A DNA stretch of 64,000 bases from Candidatus Moraniibacteriota bacterium (GTDB lineage Bacteria; Patescibacteriota; Minisyncoccia; Moranbacterales; UBA2206). Both the position numbers and the translations under genes were made by a program. The notes beneath the pieces were generated by a model. The model made no database searches. It had not been told where the DNA came from and saw only the letters and a program-made list of their open reading frames with translations. The stretch spans positions 19,360 through 83,359 of the forward strand of contig JAPLXG010000012.1 of NCBI GenBank assembly GCA_026396175.1, given 5' to 3'. Positions 2,757 through 46,389 of this stretch are shown here, piece by piece (the stretch's first letter is position 1; the number at the start of each line of letters is the position of its first letter).

Positions 2757-2884
2757 TAGAATAATAGGGCGTGAAAATTCCTCTGAAGTAGCTCCTCGTA
2801 AAACCCGATAAATCGGATCACGGGGCAGGCAATGGGCTTAATACGCCGAAGTAGCTCAATGGCAGAGCAACTGTTTTGCGCCAG

Positions 2885-3035
2885 CCCCGCACTAATTTAA
2901 AAAATAAATAAATCGCCGTCCTAGCTCAATGGCAGAGCAACTGTTTTGTAAACAGTAGGTTATCAGTTCAACTCTGATGGACGGCTCATGAGTCTAGAAG
3001 TAATTTACTGGTGCACTTTTTAAATTAGTGCGGGG
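2885..3035. repeat. Perfect 14-bp inverted repeat (CCCCGCACTAATTT at 2885-2898 / AAATTAGTGCGGGG at 3022-3035) bracketing the embedded tRNA-Thr
   Basis: Exact reverse complements read directly from sequence. Confidence 0.8.
2915..2986 (+). tRNA. tRNA-Thr (anticodon UGU), intact
   Basis: Acceptor GCCGTCC/GGACGGC, D-arm TAGCTCAATGGCAGAGCA, anticodon stem ACTGT/ACAGT with loop TTTGTAA, T-arm ATCAG-TTCAACT-CTGAT; no encoded CCA. Confidence 0.8.
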
Positions 3036-3053
3036 TAAATAGGTTATCGGTTC

Positions 3054-3073
3054 CCTGCCTGCCGGTAGGCAGG
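3054..3073. repeat. 20-nt palindrome family member (CCTGCCTGCCGGTAGGCAGG) inserted in the T-loop of the disrupted outer tRNA-Thr
   Basis: Removing it restores a canonical 7-nt T-loop TTCAACT. Confidence 0.7.
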
Positions 3074-3096
3074 AACTCCGATCTTCGGCTCAAAAT

Positions 3097-3124
3097 CATG
3101 TAGCATATAACATGTAGCATATAA
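3097..3124. repeat. Tandem 14-mer direct repeat CATGTAGCATATAA x2, followed at 3148-3176 by a CATGTT-rich tract
   Basis: Exact tandem duplication; a related CATGTTTCATG...TTACATG tract recurs inside priA at 14201-14233. Confidence 0.6.
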
Positions 3125-3197
3125 CAGGACTCCTTAATGATTTTGTTACATGTTTCATGTTGCATGTTACATGCAGTGGGTCGGTGGCGGAGTGGTC

Positions 3198-3217
3198 CCT
3201 GCCTACTGGCAGGCAGG
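3198..3217. repeat. 20-nt palindrome family member (variant CCTGCCTACTGGCAGGCAGG) in the D-loop of the outer tRNA-Tyr copy
   Basis: Flanked by GGTC and AATCGCAGC, which are contiguous in the intact tRNA-Tyr. Confidence 0.65.
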
Positions 3218-3264
3218 AATCGCAGCTGACTGTAAATCAGCCGATTTCGGTCTACGGGCGCGCG

Positions 3265-3430
3265 TCCCTCACCAATTTCGAACATTTTAAAATTATTTAG
3301 GGCAGACAGGGATATGGGTCGGTGGCGGAGTGGTCAATCGCAGCTGACTGTAAATCAGCCGATTTCGGTCTACGGGGGTTCGAATCCCTCCCGGCCCACA
3401 AGGCTGTCCTAGTTCGAAATTGGTGAGGGA
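3265..3430. repeat. Perfect 19-bp inverted repeat (TCCCTCACCAATTTCGAAC at 3265-3283 / GTTCGAAATTGGTGAGGGA at 3412-3430) bracketing the intact tRNA-Tyr
   Basis: Exact reverse complements; the same architecture as at the tRNA-Thr locus. Confidence 0.8.
3316..3398 (+). tRNA. tRNA-Tyr (anticodon GUA), type II with long variable arm, intact
   Basis: Acceptor GGGTCGG/CCGGCCC (one G-U), anticodon stem GCTGA/TCAGC with loop CTGTAAA, long variable arm, T-arm GGGGG-TTCGAAT-CCCTC. Confidence 0.8.
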
Positions 3431-3461
3431 TGAAAATCCTTCCCGGCCCACATAATTTTAC

Positions 3462-3534
3462 GCCGTTGTAGCTCAGTCGGTAGAGCATTTCCATGGTAAG
3501 GAAAAGGTCCGCAGTTCGATTCTGCGCAACGGCT
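3462..3534 (+). tRNA. tRNA-Thr (anticodon GGU), intact
   Basis: Acceptor GCCGTTG/CAACGGC, anticodon stem TTTCC/GGAAA with loop ATGGTAA, T-arm CGCAG-TTCGATT-CTGCG. Confidence 0.8.
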
Positions 3535-3540
3535 CAGGCT

Positions 3541-3587
3541 AAAGGTCCCCTGCCTGCCGGCAGGCAGGGATTCCGGACAACGGCTCA
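3541..3587 (+). pseudogene. Partial duplicate of the tRNA-Thr(GGU) 3' portion; the 20-nt palindrome (3549-3568, perfect) replaces the 5' strand of the T-stem
   Basis: AAAGGTCC[CCTGCCTGCCGGCAGGCAGG]GATTCCGGACAACGGCTCA against the tRNA's AAAGGTCCGCAGTTCGATTCTGCGCAACGGCTCA. Confidence 0.55.
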
Positions 3588-3593
3588 TTATAA

Positions 3594-3660
3594 TTAGTAG
3601 CCAGTATCTAATATTTTGTATTTAGTATTTATACTAAATACCAGATACTAAATACCACAT
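3594..3660. repeat. GTATTTAGTAT-type imperfect palindromic repeat tract just upstream of rpmG
   Basis: CCAGTATCTAATATTTTGTATTTAGTATTTATACTAAATACCAGATACTAAATACC with 9-bp arms TATTTAGTA/TACTAAATA; the same short repeat recurs at 15371-15400, 22419-22443 and 14081-14134. Confidence 0.5.
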
Positions 3661-3668
3661 ACAAATAA

Positions 3669-4745: not shown

Positions 4746-4988
4746 ATGTACTATCTTTATATCCTAAAATGCGCGGATAAAACGCTCTATACGGGGATTG
4801 CCACCGATCTTTCGCGTCGGGTTTTTGAACATAATAACAATAAGCTTGGTGCGAAATATACCGCCGCGCGCCGTCCGGTTAGGTTGGTCTATTTTCAGAA
4901 ATTTAAAAACCGCTCTCTTGCTTCCAAAGAAGAAGCGCGGATAAAAAAGTTGAAAAAAGCAGAGAAGCTAGAATTGATTGGGGGATAG
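4746..4988 (+). CDS. GIY-YIG nuclease family protein (UPF0213-like)
   Basis: MYYLYILKCADKTLYTGIATDLSRRVFEHN = canonical GIY...YIG...R...E...N motif order. Confidence 0.85.
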   Translation: MYYLYILKCADKTLYTGIATDLSRRVFEHNNNKLGAKYTAARRPVRLVYFQKFKNRSLASKEEARIKKLKKAEKLELIGG

Positions 4989-5067
4989 CGACTTGTTTGA
5001 ATTTCGCTATGTTGCGTTTGAAAAAAGTGTGGTATACTGAAAAGGTAAAATAAATAACTAAAAATTC

Positions 5068-5194
5068 ATCCCCCACCACTTTTTTGCTCGCATTTCGTGC
5101 GAAAGTGAAGTAGCCCTAGAAGCTATCGTCGGGAGAATGCTAGGATATAATTTCTAGCCAAAATAAATTCAAAAGCAAAAAAGTGGTGGGGGAT
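5068..5194. repeat. 127-bp unit bounded by a perfect 20-bp inverted repeat (ATCCCCCACCACTTTTTTGC / GCAAAAAAGTGGTGGGGGAT), ending 8 nt before the ATG at 5203
   Basis: Exact reverse complements at 5068-5087 and 5175-5194; the internal 87 nt contains further small hairpins and a TATAAT at 5146-5151. Confidence 0.5.
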
Positions 5195-5202
5195 AAAAAA
5201 AT

Positions 5203-12532: not shown

Positions 12533-14581
12533 CTAAATAATTGAAATTGGATCAATATCGATGACCCAGCCGGTTGGCAAAGATTTGAGAATAATTAGAA
12601 TTTCCTTAGGCAGTTGCTTTTGAAATTTCAAAAGCATTTGTCGGCGATATCTTCCTCGAATTTTTGGCACAAAAGAGTCGGTCGGTACACTTATTTTTAA
12701 ATCAGCCTTTTCTTTAATTAAAAGATTATACACCCTGTCTGATTCCACTGCAACCCTTTTTTGATTATAATCCTCAAAGACCAGTTTAGCAATTTTTCCA
12801 AAAGGAGGATAGCCTAAAAGTTTTCGATCAGGTAATTCTTGCTCATAGAAAGCCGGGTAATTATTTTGAGCAATCAGTGTGAGAATTTTATTTTCCGGGT
12901 GATAGGTTTGGATAATGATTCGGCCAGGAAATTTCGCGCCAGGGCGAGATACGCGACCAGATAATTGGACTAGGTCCTGCCAGGCCTTTTCACTGACCCG
13001 AAAATCCGGGAGCGTGAGCATATTGTCAGCATCAATCACTCCAACTAGACTCATCTTTGGTAAATCCCAGCCCTTAGTGATCATTTGCGTGCCGATGAGG
13101 ATGTCAATTTCTCCGCGAGAAAATTTTTCATAGGCTGTTTTTTGGAAATCTTTTTCTTTGTTTGCGGTTGAATCTAGGCGCAAAATTCTCGCTCCTGGAA
13201 AAAAATCGCGCACCTCTTTTTCCACTTTTTGCGTTCCCAGACCAACATTGCGAAATTCAATCCCATGGCATTTTGAGCAATTGGGAATAGCGCTGGCAAC
13301 AAAAGCACAATGCGGACATTTATATTCTCTTGAATTAGTATAGATAAGAGCGCGGTCACAGAGTGGACATTTGAGCACAGTTTTGCAATTAGTACAGACG
13401 GAAAAATTACTCATTCCCTGGCGATTAATGAATAAAATAGATTGCAAGTTATTTTTCAGCGCGTAGGCAATTTCACTTTTTAGTTTTTTGCTGATGCAAG
13501 AATAATTTCTCGCCCAGCGTTCTTTTTTCATATCAACCAGCTCAATTGTGCTGCGTACTTTTTGGGTGGTGACATTTTTTGGATGATAGGAATCGCTCAG
13601 AGTCAATAATTTATATTGCTTATATTGAGTTTTAAAATAAGTTTCAATGCTCGGCGTAGCTGATCCGTGGATAAGTTTGCATTTATACAATTCGGACAAT
13701 TTTTCAGCGACAGTTCGGGCGTCATAGCGTGGGTTCATATCCCATTGCTTGAATGACATATCTTGTTCTTCATCAATCACGATCAAAGCTAATTTTTGAA
13801 ATGGCGCGAAAACAGACATCCTGGTACCAATAATAATTTTTGCTTCGCCTGATTTTATCTTTTGCCAATTTGTGAAATAGACACCCTTAGAAAGATTGCT
13901 GCTGAGAAGGGCAATTTCATTTTCAGGAAAATAGGCGCCATATCTTTCCAGCGCTTGCGGAGTCAAAGTTTTTTCCGGCACTAAAATCAAAAATTGACTT
14001 TGGGGATTTTGCTTTTTGAGTTCCAAGATGGAGTGAATGTAGACTTCTGTTTTGCCCGAACCCGCCGGACCATGGAGGAGGTATCTGGTATTTTGCCTGC
14101 CTGCCGGCGAGGCAGGTATTTGGTATCTGATATCTTGCTTTGCAATATTTTTCACTGTAGCTTCTTGTTCAGCTGTTAGAATTATTGTATTTATATTTTT
14201 TGTTTCATGTTTCATATTATATGTTACATGATCAGCGCTTCGCGATTTCGTTCTCTTAGGCACAAAATTCTTCAAAACTACCCCGAGCGAGATGACGTAA
14301 TAATCTGAAATATATTTTGCAAGGGCTAATTGCTCCTTTGTGAGAAAATTTGGCTCCAAAACTTTTTCAATTTTTTTGAGCGTAATTCCGCCAACGCGGG
14401 GAAAATCATTTTTACTTTCAATCACGATTCCTTCTACGGTTTTTCTGAAAAGGGGAATGCTGACTAGCGTTCCGACGGGCAATTTTTCATCAGCGAGATA
14501 ATAGAAAAACTGGTCACGAGAAAGAAGAATCCTGACAAGAGGAGTGATACTGAGGATGAATTGAGTCTGTTTTTTGTTCAT
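12533..14581 (-). CDS. priA: Primosomal protein N' (PriA helicase) carrying in-frame repeat-derived insertions
   Basis: Walker A GPAGSGKT, DEEQD box, Cys4 zinc-binding region (CTNCKTVLKCPLCD...CPHCAF...CSKCHG). The linker before Walker A contains DHVTYNMKHET and RYQIPASPAGRQNTRY encoded by dispersed repeats. Confidence 0.9.
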   Translation of the reverse strand: MNKKQTQFILSITPLVRILLSRDQFFYYLADEKLPVGTLVSIPLFRKTVEGIVIESKNDFPRVGGITLKKIEKVLEPNFLTKEQLALAKYISDYYVISLGVVLKNFVPKRTKSRSADHVTYNMKHETKNINTIILTAEQEATVKNIAKQDIRYQIPASPAGRQNTRYLLHGPAGSGKTEVYIHSILELKKQNPQSQFLILVPEKTLTPQALERYGAYFPENEIALLSSNLSKGVYFTNWQKIKSGEAKIIIGTRMSVFAPFQKLALIVIDEEQDMSFKQWDMNPRYDARTVAEKLSELYKCKLIHGSATPSIETYFKTQYKQYKLLTLSDSYHPKNVTTQKVRSTIELVDMKKERWARNYSCISKKLKSEIAYALKNNLQSILFINRQGMSNFSVCTNCKTVLKCPLCDRALIYTNSREYKCPHCAFVASAIPNCSKCHGIEFRNVGLGTQKVEKEVRDFFPGARILRLDSTANKEKDFQKTAYEKFSRGEIDILIGTQMITKGWDLPKMSLVGVIDADNMLTLPDFRVSEKAWQDLVQLSGRVSRPGAKFPGRIIIQTYHPENKILTLIAQNNYPAFYEQELPDRKLLGYPPFGKIAKLVFEDYNQKRVAVESDRVYNLLIKEKADLKISVPTDSFVPKIRGRYRRQMLLKFQKQLPKEILIILKSLPTGWVIDIDPISII
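14081..14134. repeat. 20-nt-palindrome family copy (CCTGCCTGCCGGCGAGGCAGG, 14096-14116) flanked by GTATCTGGTATTT/GTATTTGGTATCT repeats, lying in-frame inside priA
   Basis: The reverse strand translates as DIRYQIPASPAGRQNTRYL immediately N-terminal to the Walker A motif. Confidence 0.7.
14201..14233. repeat. CATGTT repeat tract (TGTTTCATGTTTCATATTATATGTTACATGATC) in-frame inside priA
   Basis: Encodes DHVTYNMKHET on the priA strand; a related tract lies at 3148-3176 next to the tRNA cluster. Confidence 0.55.
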
Positions 14582-14685: not shown

Positions 14686-14752
14686 GGACATTTAGCTCAG
14701 TCTTGCCCCTCACCATTTTTGGATCTGTAGCTCAGCTCGTCCCTCACTATTT
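14686..14752 (+). repeat. Two tandem tRNA-5'-end fragments (GGACATTTAGCTCAG, GGATCTGTAGCTCAG), each followed by a CCCTCAC(C/T)ATTT junction motif, directly upstream of tRNA-Val
   Basis: 15-nt fragments match the acceptor 5' strand + U8 A9 + D-stem start (GGNNNTNTAGCTCAG); the junction motif resembles TCCCTCACCAATTT at 3265. Confidence 0.55.
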
Positions 14753-14826
14753 GGGCATATAGCTCAGTTGGTTAGAGCGCTTCCTTCACACGGAAGAGGT
14801 CTCCCGTTCGAGTCGGGATATGCCTA
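14753..14826 (+). tRNA. tRNA-Val (anticodon CAC)
   Basis: Acceptor GGGCATA/TATGCCT (G1-U72), D-stem GCTC/GAGC, anticodon stem CTTCC/GGAAG with loop TTCACAC, T-arm TCCCG-TTCGAGT-CGGGA. Confidence 0.7.
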
Positions 14827-14828
14827 CT

Positions 14829-23520: not shown

Positions 23521-24651
23521 ATGCGTATTTCATATTCGGCCCTTGATACCTACAAAAGCTGTCCATTGAAGTATAAATATCAACAAATCGACAAAATCAA
23601 AACACCTAAATCTAAGGAGGCAGTATTTGGGACAATTTTGCATTCGACGCTGAAATTTATCCACACGCCGGGTATCCTCTCCCCCACCTTGGAGCAAGCG
23701 ATGGAATTTTTTTCCAACTCCTGGAACCCGGCTGTTTTTGATTCTCCCGAAGAAGAGCGCGCCGCTTTTGTGCAGGGAGTGAAAATTATCCAAGATTATT
23801 TCAGGCAAAATAATCCGGCTGATTTTAATATTGTGAACCTGGAATCGCGTTTTCAAATTGAGATTGGAGAAGCCGAAAATAAACACATTATTTCTGGCAT
23901 TATTGATCGCATTGATCGCACGGCCGATGGGTTTGAAATCATTGATTATAAGACGACCAAAAAAATGCCCACGCAGGATCGTGTCGAAGGTGATATGCAA
24001 CTCTCGGTCTACCTCGCGGCTTTCCTTTCCTACTATCCCGATGAGCGAAAGAATTTAGACAAACTCAAAGTTAGTCTCTATTTTTTGAAACACGGTGTGA
24101 AACTTTCCGCCACACGAACAGAAGAACAGCTGAAAGAAAACGAGGCAGTCTTCTTGGAAACAATCAAACTAATCGAGGAAGGAAAATTTGAGCCAACTAT
24201 TTCTCCCCTTTGCGATTGGTGTGGCTATCAAAACATCTGTCCGATGTGGAAGCATAAATTCAAAGAAGCGAGAAAAATTGACACGGAAGAAATCGCTGGA
24301 CTGATTGATGAATATATTGATCTCAAATCAGCCATGGCGCTCACCAAAGATCGTTTGATGAAAATTCAGGAAGATATCGTGACCTATATGGGTCAAGAAG
24401 GCGTCGAACGCGTTTTTGGCAGTCAGGGCATCATAGCGCGTAGTCTTCGCGTTACCTATAAATATGACGAAGATAAGATTCAAGCAATCCTAGAGCCTCT
24501 GGGAAGGTGGCAGGAGGTCTTGAAGCTCGACAAAACCGCCCTCAAAAATATTTCCGATCTTTTGCCGGCGCCGGTCAAAAAAGAGATTGAAAAAGCGAAG
24601 ATTGAAGATAAAACGACTAGTAGTTTGATTGTGAAAAAAGGAAGTCAATAA
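23521..24651 (+). CDS. PD-(D/E)xK nuclease family protein (Cas4/RecB/AddB-like) with C-terminal 4-Cys cluster
   Basis: IIDRIDRT...EIIDYKTTKK (D...E.K core) and CDWCGYQNICPMW cysteine cluster; no cas genes or CRISPR array nearby. Confidence 0.65.
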   Translation: MRISYSALDTYKSCPLKYKYQQIDKIKTPKSKEAVFGTILHSTLKFIHTPGILSPTLEQAMEFFSNSWNPAVFDSPEEERAAFVQGVKIIQDYFRQNNPADFNIVNLESRFQIEIGEAENKHIISGIIDRIDRTADGFEIIDYKTTKKMPTQDRVEGDMQLSVYLAAFLSYYPDERKNLDKLKVSLYFLKHGVKLSATRTEEQLKENEAVFLETIKLIEEGKFEPTISPLCDWCGYQNICPMWKHKFKEARKIDTEEIAGLIDEYIDLKSAMALTKDRLMKIQEDIVTYMGQEGVERVFGSQGIIARSLRVTYKYDEDKIQAILEPLGRWQEVLKLDKTALKNISDLLPAPVKKEIEKAKIEDKTTSSLIVKKGSQ

Positions 24652-35859: not shown

Positions 35860-35895
35860 GGGGACTAAGTCCCGAAGCTTCGGGACTTAGTCCCC
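35860..35895. repeat. 36-nt perfect palindrome GGGGACTAAGTCCCGAAGC|TTCGGGACTTAGTCCCC (18-bp stem, no loop)
   Basis: Exact self-complement between the rplI start and the ctpA stop. Confidence 0.7.
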
Positions 35896-43657: not shown

Positions 43658-44848
43658 CTAATGACCTTTGTTACCTATGACTTCTATTACACCATAAAAC
43701 CTCCTCACAAACTTATCCCAAGAAAAAAGCTTGGCACGTTCTCGGCCTCTTTGGGAGAGCGTATCGCGCAAGTGTTTGTCAGTCAGCACTTTTTTCATCA
43801 CGAGCGAAATTTCCCTCGTGTCATCAGCGTGACAATAAAGTATACTATCCAGCCCCACTTCTGGCAAGGATGAGCTTTTGGACGCGATAGCTGGCGTTCC
43901 CTGGCTCATTGCTTCAAGAATTTGCATTCCGAAGCCTTCATAGTGCGAAGGATAGACAAAGAGTGCGGCGTTTTTAAACAGAGCGGGCAAGTGCTCTTGG
44001 GGCACCGCTCCCAAAAATTTTACTTGCTTTGTCAGATTTAATTCTTTGACTAACTTTTCCGCATCAATTGCCAGAGATAGATTGGGCAGAGGCTTCCCAT
44101 ATATCACCAACTTTGGCAGTTCAGTAATGAAAGGTAGATTTTTATTTTTATCCAAAAGCAATTTGTAGGCCTGAATCACTCCGCTGATATTTTTGCGAAT
44201 CTCCATTCCCCCGCCGGCAAAAATATAGCCGGGATTTAATTTATATTTTTTCAAAACCTTCTTACTCGTTTCGGCTGAAGCCAGTTTTCCATAGACATCA
44301 TCAATACTAATATAGTTAGTAGAAATTCTGTCAGCTGGAATCTGCAAATGTTGAATCAAATCTTTTTCTGTTCTTTTGGAGACAGTAAGAATCTTATCTG
44401 CCTTGGCAATCGCTTTTTCCGTTAGTTTTTGATAATGCTTTCTTCGCGCATTATCGAGATATTCGGGGAAAAGGCTTGGAATTATATCGTGCACGAGCAT
44501 TAGGTGCTTTGCTCTACCGCTTAGCGTAGTCGGGCATTGATAGAGACTAAAAAAAACATCACAACTATCTTTCTTGACGTGTCGCGGCAAGAGATATTTT
44601 TCCCACCAAATTTTTCGAATTAAATCATCCCGCCGGTAAAGGGGCAAAAGAGTTCTTTTTTGGAAGTTTTTTGGCAAAACAAAATCTTTTGGCAGATCTT
44701 CTTCCAAGTATAAAATATATTCTGACTCATTTTTTTGCTTTGCGCTTTTCAGCTCCTTGGCGATTAGTTTTTTAAGAAAACTAGTCGTCACTTGTCCGAT
44801 GCCCGTTTGGGGCTTACGACAAAAGGAGGCGTTGATTCCTATCCTCAT
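43658..44848 (-). CDS. Glycosyltransferase family 4 (GT-B)
   Basis: VYPSHYEGFGMQILEAMSQGTPAIAS. Confidence 0.8.
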   Translation of the reverse strand: MRIGINASFCRKPQTGIGQVTTSFLKKLIAKELKSAKQKNESEYILYLEEDLPKDFVLPKNFQKRTLLPLYRRDDLIRKIWWEKYLLPRHVKKDSCDVFFSLYQCPTTLSGRAKHLMLVHDIIPSLFPEYLDNARRKHYQKLTEKAIAKADKILTVSKRTEKDLIQHLQIPADRISTNYISIDDVYGKLASAETSKKVLKKYKLNPGYIFAGGGMEIRKNISGVIQAYKLLLDKNKNLPFITELPKLVIYGKPLPNLSLAIDAEKLVKELNLTKQVKFLGAVPQEHLPALFKNAALFVYPSHYEGFGMQILEAMSQGTPAIASKSSSLPEVGLDSILYCHADDTREISLVMKKVLTDKHLRDTLSQRGRERAKLFSWDKFVRRFYGVIEVIGNKGH

Positions 44849-45021
44849 GGAGTTCTCTACGAATTACGAATTTGTACGAATATACGAATGTACAAATTCA
44901 AAAACGAATTAACAATTTATTAATGTAATTATAGCATACTATTTCAAGGTTGCAGAAGAAAATCAAAAGCTTTACGAAAAATCAAATTTAGACTATACTG
45001 AGATTAGTTTAATTAGCCTAA

Positions 45022-45360: not shown

Positions 45361-45394
45361 TAATTCGCCTGCCTGCCGGCAGGCAGGTAATTCG
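45361..45394. mobile_element. 20-nt perfect palindrome CCTGCCTGCCGGCAGGCAGG (45368-45387) flanked by a perfect 7-bp direct repeat TAATTCG (target-site duplication)
   Basis: TAATTCG|CCTGCCTGCCGGCAGGCAGG|TAATTCG read directly. Confidence 0.7.
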
Positions 45395-45405
45395 TAGAGA
45401 AACAC

Positions 45406-46389
45406 ATGAAACTGATTGTCAACATTCCCGCTTACAACGAAGAAGCGAAAATTGGAGAAACAATTGAACGTATCAAAAAAAGCTTTTCAGCCGATTTTTA
45501 TACACAGGGCGAAGGATCGAAGATTTCTGAGAAATTGATTCAGATGGTGGATGACGGATCAAGCGATAATACGGTCGAAGTTGCCCAGAAAGCCGGACTA
45601 GACCTGCTCGTCTCCTATAAACCCAATCGCCGCCTGGCTTATTCTTTCAAGCGGGCCGTAGAAAATGCGCTGGAAAATGGTGCGGATATTATGGTCAATA
45701 TTGATGCGGATGGCCAATTTAACCCGCTGGATATTCCTAAATTAATTACTCCGATCCTCGCTGGCCAATGTGATATGGTGATTGCTAATCGCTTCGGCAA
45801 GCATGAAGCCAAGGATATGCCAAAAATCAAATACCACCTTAACCGTTTTGCCGCCAAAATGATTGGCTTTTTTCTCAACTACCCCATTGATGATTTGACT
45901 TGCGGATTTCGCGCACATAACCGCGAAACACTCCTGCGCCTCAATATTACTAATGTCAGCTTCACCTACACCCAAGAAACAATCATTGATGCAATTGGAA
46001 AAAATTTGAAACTAAAATGGGTGCCGGTTAATGTTCAGTATTTCGCTGATCGCGAAAGCCGAATTGTGAAATCAGTTTGGAAATTCGTAGGAAACTCAGC
46101 TAAAATAATCCTAAAAGCAGTGCGTGATGTCCGTCCAATGAAATTTTTTGGCGTTCCCGGGCTCACCCTGGTCACTGCATCTCTTTTGGTTTTTTGTGCT
46201 TTTCTTTTTCAATATTTTCAAACTTTCCAAATCACCACTTACCGCAACTACCTTTTCCTTTCCGCCGCACTGCTCTTTGTTGGCTCGCAACTCCTCATTT
46301 TTGCCCTTATTGCCGATATGATCAAAACTAATCGCAACCTCACTGAAGAGCAAATGTATCTCTTGAAAAAAGACCGGCTTAAAAAATAG
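45406..46389 (+). CDS. Glycosyltransferase family 2 (polyprenol-phosphate sugar transferase-like, C-terminal TM helices)
   Basis: VNIPAYNEE...DDGSSDNT...DADGQ GT-A motifs and C-terminal membrane anchor. Confidence 0.8.
   Translation: MKLIVNIPAYNEEAKIGETIERIKKSFSADFYTQGEGSKISEKLIQMVDDGSSDNTVEVAQKAGLDLLVSYKPNRRLAYSFKRAVENALENGADIMVNIDADGQFNPLDIPKLITPILAGQCDMVIANRFGKHEAKDMPKIKYHLNRFAAKMIGFFLNYPIDDLTCGFRAHNRETLLRLNITNVSFTYTQETIIDAIGKNLKLKWVPVNVQYFADRESRIVKSVWKFVGNSAKIILKAVRDVRPMKFFGVPGLTLVTASLLVFCAFLFQYFQTFQITTYRNYLFLSAALLFVGSQLLIFALIADMIKTNRNLTEEQMYLLKKDRLKK

What the first reader, a model, noticed from the sequence alone, without database searches (positions are those of the whole stretch)
45361..45394. 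Intergenic copy of the 20-nt palindrome with a perfect 7-bp target-site duplication (TAATTCG)
TAATTCG-CCTGCCTGCCGGCAGGCAGG-TAATTCG, 12 nt upstream of the GT2 gene at 45406. A perfect flanking direct repeat is the classic signature of transposition. It implies the 20-mer itself, only 20 nt with no coding capacity, is mobilised in trans and generates a 7-bp TSD. The priA copy is flanked by the near-repeat TATTTTG/TATTTGG, consistent with the same mechanism.
Basis: seen in the sequence. Interest (0 to 1): 0.65.

Follow-up and report, generated by a model that had tools for sequence, protein, structure and literature searches.

The report
Tiny mobile palindrome, no target duplication
The 20-base palindrome upstream of the glycosyltransferase gene is a real miniature mobile element found across many bacterial phyla, usually beside tiny GIY-YIG nuclease genes at tRNA genes, but its flanking TAATTCG repeat was already there before it landed and is not a transposition footprint.

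Summary
The sequence is exactly as described: TAATTCG-CCTGCCTGCCGGCAGGCAGG-TAATTCG at 45361-45394. The 20-mer (P) is a genuine repeat. The window, from a Candidatus Moranbacteria genome, holds five copies. P also occurs in at least 120 genome loci from many phyla and in 53 viral contigs.

The target-site-duplication reading fails three tests.
1. About 500 nt away, upstream of the divergent glycosyltransferase gene, the same 20 nt (AATTCGTAATTCGTAGAGAA, then 4 nt and ATG) occur uninterrupted. The heptamer repeat therefore exists without P.
2. Three priA orthologues lack the insert yet already carry the heptamer array. The insert there is exactly 21 nt.
3. Copies in tRNA genes or fragments, and copies nested inside other copies, are exact 20-nt insertions with no duplication.

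Across 182 copies, only 6 have perfect flanking repeats of 7 nt or more, and these lie in longer heptamer or octamer arrays.

The new result is a gene association. Of 80 metagenome loci chosen only for an ~80-aa GIY-YIG nuclease gene, 61 carry P within about 150 nt. P typically sits in the D-loop of a broken tRNA-Leu fragment, next to an intact tRNA-Leu.

P behaves like the cyanobacterial "small dispersed repeats". Whether the GIY-YIG nuclease moves it is inferred, not shown.

The parts
45368..45387 (.). Orphan copy of the 20-bp palindrome P (CCTGCCTGCCGGCAGGCAGG). It lies in the 5' leader of the GT2 gene, 18 nt before its ATG.
   Evidence: Two independent Logan assemblies (L121, L268) carry the same filled site.
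45361..45367 (+). Left TAATTCG heptamer. It is one unit of a pre-existing tandem heptamer repeat, not one half of a TSD.
45388..45394 (+). Right TAATTCG heptamer, the second unit of the same pre-existing repeat. It is followed by TAGAGAA-acac-ATG.
44853..44872 (-). Paralogous empty site. AATTCGTAATTCGTAGAGAA is uninterrupted and followed by ctcc-ATG of the divergent GT4 gene (43658..44848, minus strand). Further ATTCGTA units lie at 44875 and 44883.
   Evidence: It is a 20-nt exact match to the 45362-45407 site once P is removed.
14095..14115 (-). 21-nt in-frame variant of P inside priA (CCTGCCTCGCCGGCAGGCAGG on the gene strand). It encodes PASPAGR just before the Walker A motif and sits inside a heptamer array.
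   Evidence: Orthologues L182, L184 and L185 are empty and differ by exactly 21 nt. L183 is filled.
3198..3217 (.). P variant (CCTGCCTACTGGCAGGCAGG) in the D-loop of a dead 5' fragment of tRNA-Tyr.
   Evidence: The flanks 3177-3197 and 3218-3258 are 100% identical to the contiguous stretch 3315-3376 of the intact tRNA-Tyr, so this is an exact 20-nt insertion with no TSD.
3316..3399 (+). Intact tRNA-Tyr(GTA). It serves as the empty-site paralogue for the copy at 3198.
3054..3073 (.). P variant (CCTGCCTGCCGGTAGGCAGG) in the T-loop (GGTTC|AACTCC) of a leftover 3' fragment of a split tRNA-Thr.
3549..3568 (.). Canonical P in a leftover 3' tRNA fragment directly after tRNA-Thr(GGT) (3462-3535).
4746..4988 (+). 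80-aa stand-alone GIY-YIG nuclease gene, 1.2 kb from the tRNA/P cluster. It is only about 30% identical to the P-linked GIY-YIG family and has no P beside it. It is a candidate relative, not a demonstrated partner.
   Evidence: PF01541, E=1.2e-15. Alignment. tblastn.

Best explanation
The 20-mer at 45368-45387 is an orphan copy of a very small, non-coding mobile palindrome (P).

SHOWN:
- P inserts as an exact 20-bp block (21 bp where a reading frame must be kept) and duplicates no target DNA.
- It lands preferentially in DNA that can loop out as single strands: D-, T-, anticodon and variable loops of tRNA genes or dead tRNA fragments, loops of other hairpins, the tetraloop of P itself, and short tandem heptamer arrays.
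- The TAATTCG repeat here is such a pre-existing heptamer array. The same array, uninterrupted, sits in front of the neighbouring divergent glycosyltransferase gene.
- P is strongly co-located with a family of ~80-aa stand-alone GIY-YIG nuclease genes (UPF0213/SLX1-like) that sit beside tRNA-Leu genes. Each such gene is flanked by one intact tRNA and one broken copy that carries P.

INFERRED (about 40% likely): this GIY-YIG nuclease, acting on structure, nicks or cuts looped-out DNA. P is then copied or ligated into the break. Solo copies such as this one would relate to the nuclease gene as REP sequences relate to their RAYT transposase.
For: Exact insertion without duplication:
- tRNA-Tyr paralogue in the window.
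- priA filled versus three empty orthologues, differing by exactly 21 nt.
- 21 tRNA-Leu fragment/intact pairs, with P after tRNA nucleotide 14/15 or 23/24.
- tRNA sites in L022, L054, L174 and L162.
- Nested copies, always 1 nt off centre.

Pre-existing repeat:
- The 20-nt uninterrupted paralogue at 44853-44872.
- Heptamer arrays in empty priA orthologues.
- Multi-unit arrays around other copies.

Site preference:
- Flanking 7-mers within 2 mismatches of each other in 22 of 182 copies, against 2.6 (permuted pairs) and 8.6 (random intergenic positions).
- Lag-7 autocorrelation of flanks 0.309 against 0.261.
- A stem of 7 bp or more bracketing P in 12 of 182 copies, against 1.0 and 3.4 for the same two controls.

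Spread:
- At least 120 genome loci from Patescibacteria, Bacteroidota, Omnitrophota, Planctomycetota, Nitrospirota, Chloroflexota, Gammaproteobacteria and Bdellovibrionota.
- 53 viral-contig loci.

GIY-YIG link:
- 6 of 8 GIY-YIG genes found in P-selected loci lie within 100 nt of P.
- In the reverse test, 61 of 80 loci selected only by the GIY-YIG protein carry P (2 or fewer substitutions) within 130 nt upstream or 160 nt downstream (67 of 80 with 3 or fewer edits anywhere in the locus). 62 adjacent tRNAs are tRNA-Leu.
- P plus the GIY-YIG gene are inserted together, in frame, in an hsdS gene in L091.
- The protein profile matches UPF0213 proteins (E about 1e-13) and SLX1 structure-specific nucleases.
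- The family has at least 7,655 clusters in the same phyla as P.
Against: - No empty allele of the 45368 site itself was found. Close relatives have a different or no spacer, and both strain-level contigs are filled. The no-TSD call for this copy therefore rests on a paralogue plus analogy.
- The enzyme assignment is circumstantial. In this window P occupies 3 of 5 dead tRNA fragments that were made by a different kind of cassette, with no P-type GIY-YIG gene beside them. P may simply favour any tRNA-like hairpin freed from selection.
- Only 6 of 173 P-selected loci have the GIY-YIG gene nearby.
- The window's own GIY-YIG is a divergent subfamily without P.
- The heptamer association could in principle be produced by the element rather than pre-exist.
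- The paired changes at positions 5 and 12, which hint at a 6-bp-stem hairpin, are few and also fit the full palindrome with a wobble pair.
Confidence: 0.6

Rival explanations
1. P is mobile and inserts without duplication, but independently of the GIY-YIG gene. An unknown or host-encoded activity moves it. P and the GIY-YIG cassettes meet only because both end up at tRNA genes. The cassettes create dead tRNA fragments whose D- and T-arm hairpins are P's favourite neutral landing sites.
For: - In this window, 3 of 5 dead tRNA fragments made by inverted-repeat-bounded tRNA cassettes carry P without a P-type GIY-YIG gene beside them.
- About 96% of P-selected loci have no GIY-YIG gene nearby.
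- Unbiased clustering of neighbouring genes found no common neighbour.
- Other, unrelated hairpins occupy the same D-loop sites in P-less GIY-YIG loci.
Against: - P occupies the fragment at the same two nucleotide positions in 76% of GIY-YIG loci.
- P lies at the boundary of a GIY-YIG insertion in a non-tRNA gene, hsdS in L091.
- P and the GIY-YIG family have matching taxonomic ranges.
- No alternative enzyme is visible. None of 55 window ORFs is a transposase, integrase or RAYT.
Confidence: 0.3
2. P is a minimal transposon made of two abutted 10-bp terminal inverted repeats. A DDE-type transposase moves it, makes staggered cuts and leaves a 7-bp target-site duplication. TAATTCG/TAATTCG is that duplication.
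For: - The perfect 7-nt flank repeat here and at L068, L110 and L154.
- A significant excess of near-identical flanking 7-mers.
Against: - No duplication at any site whose empty state is known: the tRNA-Tyr paralogue, priA orthologues, 21 tRNA-Leu pairs and nested copies.
- 166 of 182 copies have 0-1 nt of flank identity.
- Repeat lengths vary (7, 8, 9, 14 nt), and the repeats continue as arrays of 3-7 units on both sides.
- The same heptamer array exists uninterrupted at the paralogous site and in empty priA alleles.
- There is no transposase in the window.
Confidence: 0.03
3. P is not mobile in its own right. It is a functional cis-element, such as a dimeric protein-binding site, transcription terminator or attenuator, or RNA-stabilising hairpin. 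Either it is selected in place upstream of the GT2 gene, or it is a remnant of a decayed GIY-YIG cassette.
For: - A perfect spacer-less palindrome is typical of sites bound by dimeric proteins.
- It sits 18 nt upstream of a start codon.
- It folds at -8 kcal/mol as single-stranded DNA.
- It lies about 25 nt upstream of the GIY-YIG ATG in many loci, which could suggest a role in expression.
Against: - The identical 20-mer occurs in coding sequence, inside tRNA fragments, inside other hairpins and inside itself, in unrelated phyla.
- Clean presence/absence differences of exactly 20 or 21 nt exist between orthologues and paralogues.
- There is no tRNA or GIY-YIG debris around 45368.
- The paralogous leader works without it.
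Confidence: 0.07

Closest known systems
Small dispersed repeats (SDR1-8) of Nostoc and Anabaena (Elhai et al. 2008, Genome Res 18:1484; paper not held; cited in PMC3116915 and PMC4390886; details from my own memory of the abstract)
   Same: - Very small (21-27 nt) non-coding hairpin-forming units.
- They insert precisely; SDR5 inserts between nucleotides 3 and 4 of HIP1 (PMC4390886).
- They are often embedded in tandem heptamer repeats and nested inside copies of themselves.
- Their mechanism is unknown.
   Different: - SDRs are reported as confined to one group of cyanobacteria.
- P is 20 nt, a perfect palindrome, crosses at least eight phyla and also occurs in viral contigs.
- P is tied to tRNA fragments and to a GIY-YIG nuclease gene family.
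- Sequence relatedness to the SDRs was not tested.
REP/REPIN sequences and their RAYT (Y1 HUH) transposases (PMC3116915, PMC3733652)
   Same: - Short (20-40 bp) palindromic non-autonomous repeats, dispersed in a genome.
- The gene of the presumed mobilising enzyme is itself flanked by the repeats.
- Insertion without target duplication.
- Occasional insertion in coding regions.
   Different: - The flanked gene here is a GIY-YIG nuclease, not a Y1 transposase.
- There is no conserved GTAG or CGTC tag.
- P has low copy number per genome.
- The same sequence is shared across phyla rather than being species-specific.
- P targets tRNA loops and heptamer arrays.
Free-standing GIY-YIG homing endonuclease genes, for example phage T4 SegB in the tRNA gene cluster (PMC13096335; target details from my own knowledge) and I-TevI
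   Same: - A small GIY-YIG gene sits among or next to tRNA genes.
- It spreads between genomes.
- The disrupted target copy lies next to it.
   Different: - Known Seg and Tev enzymes have a DNA-binding domain and are 200 aa or longer. These proteins are about 80 aa, catalytic domain only.
- Classical homing leaves no duplicated target and has no associated dispersed palindrome.
Rickettsia palindromic elements (RPE; mentioned in PMC3733652) and yeast mitochondrial GC clusters (own knowledge)
   Same: GC-rich palindromic selfish DNA in AT-rich genomes, tolerated in frame inside essential protein genes and in RNA genes.
   Different: - RPEs are 100-150 nt and lineage-restricted.
- GC clusters are mitochondrial and are reported with short flanking repeats.
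- Neither is linked to a GIY-YIG gene or to tRNA-Leu.
MITEs (Correia/NEMIS, RUP, ERIC, Nezha; PMC3733652)
   Same: Non-autonomous, with inverted-repeat ends, and moved in trans.
   Different: - MITEs are 100 nt or longer with 15-30-bp terminal repeats.
- They make a fixed-length TSD through a DDE transposase. P does not.

Membership tests
   - 166 of 182 copies have 0-1 nt of flank identity.
- Empty sites known from paralogues or orthologues show no duplication.
- Flank repeats are parts of arrays that are also present at empty sites.
   No transposase among 55 window ORFs scanned with Pfam. No recurrent transposase gene near P in 173 loci. The whole genome could not be searched.
REP/REPIN-RAYT | A Y1 (HUH) RAYT gene flanked by the repeats. 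| tested here: not met
   The gene flanked by P is GIY-YIG (PF01541), not Y1_Tnp.
REP/REPIN-RAYT | An imperfect palindrome with a conserved unpaired GTAG or CGTC tag. | tested here: not met
   P is a perfect 20-nt palindrome with no external tag. The first flanking base only avoids A.
Small dispersed repeats (SDR, Elhai 2008) | A unit of about 20-27 nt embedded in tandem heptamer repeats. | tested here: met
   Heptamer enrichment in flanks. priA and GT-leader arrays.
Small dispersed repeats (SDR, Elhai 2008) | Copies nested within copies of themselves. | tested here: met
   L021, L027, L033, L061, L067 and L114, always between C9 and C10 or the mirror position.
Small dispersed repeats (SDR, Elhai 2008) | Sequence or structure identity with SDR1-8, and restriction to heterocystous cyanobacteria. 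| not tested
   The paper and its sequences are not held. None of the 120 listed genome loci is titled as a cyanobacterium, so at best P is an analogue, not a member.
Free-standing GIY-YIG homing element | A GIY-YIG ORF adjacent to the element and to its disrupted target. | tested here: met
   Met for the P family as a whole: 61 of 80 GIY-YIG loci carry P, and 62 adjacent tRNAs are tRNA-Leu. It is NOT met for the 45368 copy, which is an orphan about 40 kb from the only GIY-YIG ORF in the window.
Free-standing GIY-YIG homing element | Site-specific or structure-specific endonuclease activity on the target, and dependence of mobility on it. | not testable with these tools
   There is only sequence similarity to UPF0213 and SLX1 GIY-YIG domains. 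No NCBIfam family matches.
Rickettsia-type palindromic elements in genes | In-frame insertion tolerated in essential protein-coding genes. | tested here: met
   The 21-nt variant encodes PASPAGR in priA. Orthologues without it are otherwise collinear. Size (100-150 nt) and lineage do not match RPE.

The most novel reading that the evidence does not exclude
P is the non-autonomous DNA partner of a huge, uncharacterised family of ~80-aa GIY-YIG nucleases.
- The nuclease gene spreads between phyla by using universally conserved tRNA-Leu sequence as its landing pad. It duplicates part of the tRNA so the host keeps a working copy.
- The same structure-specific nuclease seeds exact 20-bp hairpin insertions into any looped-out DNA: tRNA loops, terminators, heptamer arrays and coding regions.
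- This would be a nuclease-driven counterpart of the REP/RAYT system. It would also offer the first candidate mechanism for the unexplained "very small mobile repeats" (SDR class).
Probability: 0.35. Interest if true: 0.85.

Novelty: new variant of a known kind. Interest (0 to 1): 0.7.

Why it matters
- How units of about 20 nt with no coding capacity move has been open since the cyanobacterial SDR elements were described. Here one such unit has clean filled and empty sites and defined landing preferences. It also has a strong, statistically testable association with a specific nuclease gene family that can be expressed and assayed.
- The identical 20-mer in Patescibacteria, Bacteroidota, Omnitrophota, Planctomycetota, Nitrospirota and phage-like contigs implies very broad horizontal spread. 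A plausible vehicle is conserved tRNA sequence.
- Practically, P and its relatives break tRNA gene prediction and insert 7-residue PASPAGR-type peptides into essential proteins.
- They also mimic target-site duplications when they land in heptamer arrays. That is exactly the trap in this finding.

Tried and rejected
1. Orthologous empty site for 45368. Relatives with 89-94% identical GT2 proteins have the 77-aa ORF and the GT2 gene only 4-10 nt apart, or an unrelated 97-nt spacer. No informative allele was found.
2. Strain-level look-ups by exact protein (GT2 and the 76-aa ORF) gave only filled contigs.
3. Stop-to-stop open frames as a coding/non-coding classifier for the 182 copies were uninformative in GC-rich loci.
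4. Unbiased clustering of genes within 2.5 kb of P found no universal neighbour. ParB appeared in 6 loci and was not pursued.
5. Pfam scan of 55 window ORFs for a transposase, integrase or RAYT found none. The only nucleases are a PD-(D/E)XK protein (23521-24651) and the 80-aa GIY-YIG.
6. Rfam over the whole window found only the five tRNAs.
7. Literature searches found nothing on the 20-mer itself, on GC-rich palindromes in Patescibacteria, on GIY-YIG with palindromes or tRNA-Leu, or on UPF0213/YhbQ in this context. The Elhai 2008 paper is not held.
8. Covariation at positions 5 and 12 as proof of a 6-bp-stem hairpin register. This is suggestive, but the folds show the full-length register also tolerates these variants. 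It is not used as evidence.
9. A sequence-specific target motif. There is only a weak rule: the first base outside P is rarely A (26 of 364), and TTCG abuts P in 9 copies.
10. A sequencing or adapter artefact was considered and rejected. P has natural variants, occurs in isolate genomes (Winogradskyella, Olivibacter, Flagellimonas), shows site preferences, and has in-frame 21-nt forms conserved between orthologues.

Full report
**Observation**

The window reads ggaaTAATTCG-CCTGCCTGCCGGCAGGCAGG-TAATTCGtagagaaacacATG at 45361-45394. The 20-mer (P) is a perfect palindrome. It ends 18 nt before the start of a family-2 glycosyltransferase gene (45406-46389).

With up to 3 mismatches P occurs four times in the window, against zero in shuffles. 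A 21-nt variant lies at 14095-14115 inside priA.

Protein matches place the window in a Candidatus Moranbacteria (Patescibacteria) genome. The description is therefore accurate. A perfect 7-nt repeat on both sides of a copy is far rarer than chance allows (see "Statistics of flanks").

**P is a real, widely spread element**

About nine chance matches were expected by my own arithmetic. The loci come from Patescibacteria, Bacteroidota (including isolates of Winogradskyella, Olivibacter and Flagellimonas), Omnitrophota, Planctomycetota, Nitrospirota, Chloroflexota, Gammaproteobacteria and Bdellovibrionota.

The viral-contig collection gave 53 more loci. One 29.5-kb contig carries six copies. After removing duplicates there are 182 copies with usable flanks.

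**Is there a target-site duplication? Sites with a known empty state**

(a) tRNA-Tyr in the window. A dead 5' fragment of tRNA-Tyr carries P. Its flanks (3177-3197 and 3218-3258) are 100% identical to a contiguous stretch of the intact tRNA-Tyr 138 nt downstream. This is an exact 20-nt insertion in the D-loop with no duplication.

(b) priA. The insert encodes PASPAGR just before the Walker A motif.
- Orthologues P0123, P0124 and P0134 lack these seven residues. P0122 has them.
- At the DNA level, filled and empty alleles differ by exactly 21 nt.
- The empty alleles already contain a five-unit heptamer array (ARATACY)n spanning the site.

(c) tRNA-Leu pairs. In 21 loci a 5' tRNA-Leu fragment with P lies next to an intact tRNA-Leu. 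The fragment continues the tRNA sequence immediately on both sides of P.

(d) Other tRNA sites. Sites in L022, L054, L174 and L162 become canonical D-arms or variable loops once exactly 20 nt are removed.

(e) Nested copies. P inside P always splits the outer copy between C9 and C10 (or the mirror position) with nothing duplicated.

**The 45368 site itself**

No empty allele exists in the data I could reach. Relatives with 89-94% identical GT2 proteins have no comparable spacer. Two independent Logan contigs are filled.

The window does contain a paralogous empty site. The divergently transcribed GT4 gene (43658-44848, minus strand) is preceded by ...ATTCGTAtATTCGTAcaaATTCGTAATTCGTAGAGAActccATG. 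With P removed, the GT2 leader reads ...ggaaTAATTCGTAATTCGTAGAGAAacacATG.

The two leaders share a 20-nt exact block, AATTCGTAATTCGTAGAGAA, at the same distance from the ATG. In 128 kb of two-strand sequence a chance 20-nt match is of order 1e-7 (my arithmetic).

The tandem heptamer therefore exists without P. P sits between two of its units.

**Statistics of flanks**

- Flank identity. Exact flank repeats of 7, 7, 7, 7, 8 and 14 nt occur in 6 of 182 copies. 166 copies have 0-1 nt of identity.
- Near-identical 7-mers. Flanking 7-mers within 2 mismatches occur in 22 copies. The expectation is 2.6 for permuted flank pairs and 8.6 at random intergenic positions of the same loci. Excesses at 8 and 9 nt are smaller.
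- Periodicity. The joined flanks show lag-7 autocorrelation of 0.309 against 0.261, and no codon periodicity.
- Arrays. Printed in register, these cases are arrays of 3-7 units on both sides of P, for example L102, L161, L082, L073, L089, L159 and L140. In a tandem array every position has identical flanking units, so such repeats do not indicate duplication on insertion.
- Hairpin loops. P also tends to sit in the loop of another hairpin. A perfect stem of 7 bp or more brackets it within 8 nt in 12 copies, against 1.0 (permuted) and 3.4 (intergenic control).
- tRNA context. About 8-10% of copies lie in tRNA genes or fragments.
- Flanking base. The first base outside P is rarely A (26 of 364).

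**Search for a trans-acting factor**

None of 55 window ORFs is a transposase, integrase or RAYT. Clustering of all ORFs within 2.5 kb of P in 173 loci gave no universal neighbour.

It did reveal small GIY-YIG ORFs. A tblastn follow-up found eight such genes in all held sequence, six of them 20-100 nt from P.

Their anatomy is consistent. A 5' fragment of a tRNA carrying P comes first, then the ~80-aa GIY-YIG ORF, then an intact copy of the same tRNA a few nucleotides after the stop codon. This is seen in L054 (tRNA-Lys), L095 (tRNA-Leu, two P copies), L026 (tRNA-Arg) and L174. In L091, P plus the GIY-YIG gene are inserted in frame in the central region of an hsdS gene.

**Reverse test**

I fetched 80 metagenome loci using only a profile of this GIY-YIG protein.
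- 67 loci contain P or a version with 3 or fewer edits.
- 61 loci have P (2 or fewer substitutions) within 130 nt upstream or 160 nt downstream of the ORF.
- 62 of the adjacent tRNAs are tRNA-Leu.
- In 46 of the 80 loci P lies upstream of the ORF (40 upstream only, 6 on both sides), typically in a 5' tRNA-Leu fragment. P follows tRNA nucleotide 14/15 (GGCGGAA|TTGG) or 23/24 (GGTAGA|CGCG). The ORF follows, and the intact tRNA starts 1-9 nt after the stop codon.
- In a further 15 loci P lies only downstream of the ORF, typically with the intact tRNA upstream and P in a 3' copy of the tRNA.
- P-less loci often have a different GC-rich hairpin at the same D-loop sites.

The protein profile matches the uncharacterised UPF0213 proteins EF2693 and BH0048 (E about 1e-13) and the GIY-YIG domain of SLX1 structure-specific endonucleases (E about 1e-5). 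No NCBIfam model matches. At least 7,655 protein clusters belong to the family. They are annotated only as "GIY-YIG nuclease family protein" and come from Bacteroidota, Patescibacteria and Omnitrophota, matching the range of P.

**Interpretation and its limits**

Shown:
- P is a discrete insertion of 20 nt (21 nt in coding sequence).
- It leaves no target duplication.
- It favours loops and heptamer arrays.
- It is spread across phyla.
- It is strongly co-located with a tRNA-associated mini GIY-YIG gene.

Inferred: that this nuclease moves P. I put this at about 0.4, because the window offers a counter-example. Its tRNA cluster contains two cassettes bounded by perfect 19-bp inverted repeats (2885-2903/3017-3035 and 3265-3283/3412-3430). 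Each carries an intact tRNA and is inserted inside a resident copy of the same tRNA.

P occupies three of the five resulting dead fragments, although no P-type GIY-YIG gene is next to them. The only GIY-YIG ORF in the window (4746-4988) is a divergent subfamily without P. P may therefore simply colonise any tRNA-like hairpin that selection no longer protects.

The direct link still has support: the hsdS case, the constant D-loop positions and the 76% occupancy. It is not proven.

**Comparison with known systems**

- The closest analogues in behaviour are the cyanobacterial small dispersed repeats. They are 21-27 nt, embedded in heptamer repeats, nested in themselves, and of unknown mechanism. 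The paper's existence and the precise-insertion statement are confirmed through citing papers. The other details are from memory, because the paper is not held.
- The closest analogue in organisation is REP/RAYT, where the mobilising gene is flanked by its repeat. Here the gene is GIY-YIG, there is no GTAG tag, and the sequence is shared across phyla.
- MITE/TSD membership fails on its defining feature.
- I found no description of the P sequence, or of a GIY-YIG/tRNA-Leu/palindrome unit in bacteria, in the searchable literature. That library lacks most subscription journals.

**Verdict**

"Mobilised in trans" is supported. "Generates a 7-bp TSD" is refuted. It is a cross-phylum, exact-insertion, 20-bp palindrome tied to tRNA-disrupting mini-nuclease cassettes.

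Noticed in passing
window 2845-3092 and 3178-3452: Two cassettes are bounded by perfect 19-bp inverted repeats (2885-2903/3017-3035 CCCCGCACTAATTTAAAAA; 3265-3283/3412-3430 TCCCTCACCAATTTCGAAC). Each carries an intact tRNA (Thr-UGU, Tyr-GUA) and sits inside a resident, now split, copy of the same tRNA. The Thr split is within the anticodon. The cassette tRNA-Thr has acceptor and T stems different from the resident one. This looks like a disrupt-and-replace tRNA element that I do not recognise.
   Followed up: partly
window 5065-5088 / 5174-5197, and 14707-14719: The inverted-repeat motif CCCNCACNAATTT has 9 hits (1 or fewer mismatches) in the window against 1.9 expected. These include a 24-nt, 96%-complementary pair with 85 nt between the arms, just downstream of the 80-aa GIY-YIG ORF, and a single copy just upstream of tRNA-Val (14753-14827).
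   Followed up: partly
window 44853-44890 (minus strand) and 45361-45401: Both divergently transcribed glycosyltransferase genes share the leader AATTCGTAATTCGTAGAGAA-N4-ATG, with extra ATTCGTA units on the GT4 side. This may be a shared regulatory or ribosome-binding module built from heptamers.
   Followed up: partly
window 35860-35895: A perfect 36-nt palindrome, GGGGACTAAGTCCCGAAGCTTCGGGACTTAGTCCCC, lies just downstream of the S41 peptidase gene. It contains a smaller internal palindrome and may belong to another family of GC-rich hairpin elements.
   Followed up: no
priA orthologues P0125-P0133, P0145, P0174: Other GC-rich in-frame inserts occur at nearby priA positions in related Moranbacteria. 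These are 'KPSFAKATAGKQ'-type peptides and P-like 'PVSPAGE' and 'PASSAGK'. The priA N-terminal linker is a hotspot for several mini-elements.
   Followed up: no
L091:3861-4154: P followed 20 nt later by the GIY-YIG module is fused in frame into the central conserved region of a type I restriction specificity (hsdS) gene. This gives one 701-aa ORF.
   Followed up: partly
L241, L216, L209, L252, L262, L264 (upstream of GIY-YIG ORFs): In GIY-YIG loci without P, other unrelated GC-rich hairpins occupy the same tRNA-Leu D-loop positions. Examples are CCCGCCAAAGGCGGG in L241 and CCCCGTAAATTTTCGCTTCGCTCAAAAAACGGGG in L209.
   Followed up: no
L003, L071, L095, L163, L175 and one more locus: ParB-family genes lie within 2.5 kb of P in 6 of 173 loci (median 272 nt). 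That is more than expected for a single-copy gene. It may reflect chance or origin-proximal intergenic DNA.
   Followed up: no
L101, L156, L157, L078, L018, L072, L087: P is often inserted inside or next to other widespread small hairpin repeats. Examples are CCCTCTCC...GGAGAGGG followed by GTTGGGGGTGAGG, and GTCATTGCGAGGAGCG...CGACGAAGCAATC. This suggests a community of nested mini-elements.
   Followed up: no
window 3097-3171 and 3593-3666: The tRNA cluster also holds a tandem 14-mer (CATGTAGCATATAA x2), a heptamer array (TGTTACA TGTTTCA TGTTGCA TGTTACA) and a 36-nt imperfect inverted repeat.
   Followed up: no
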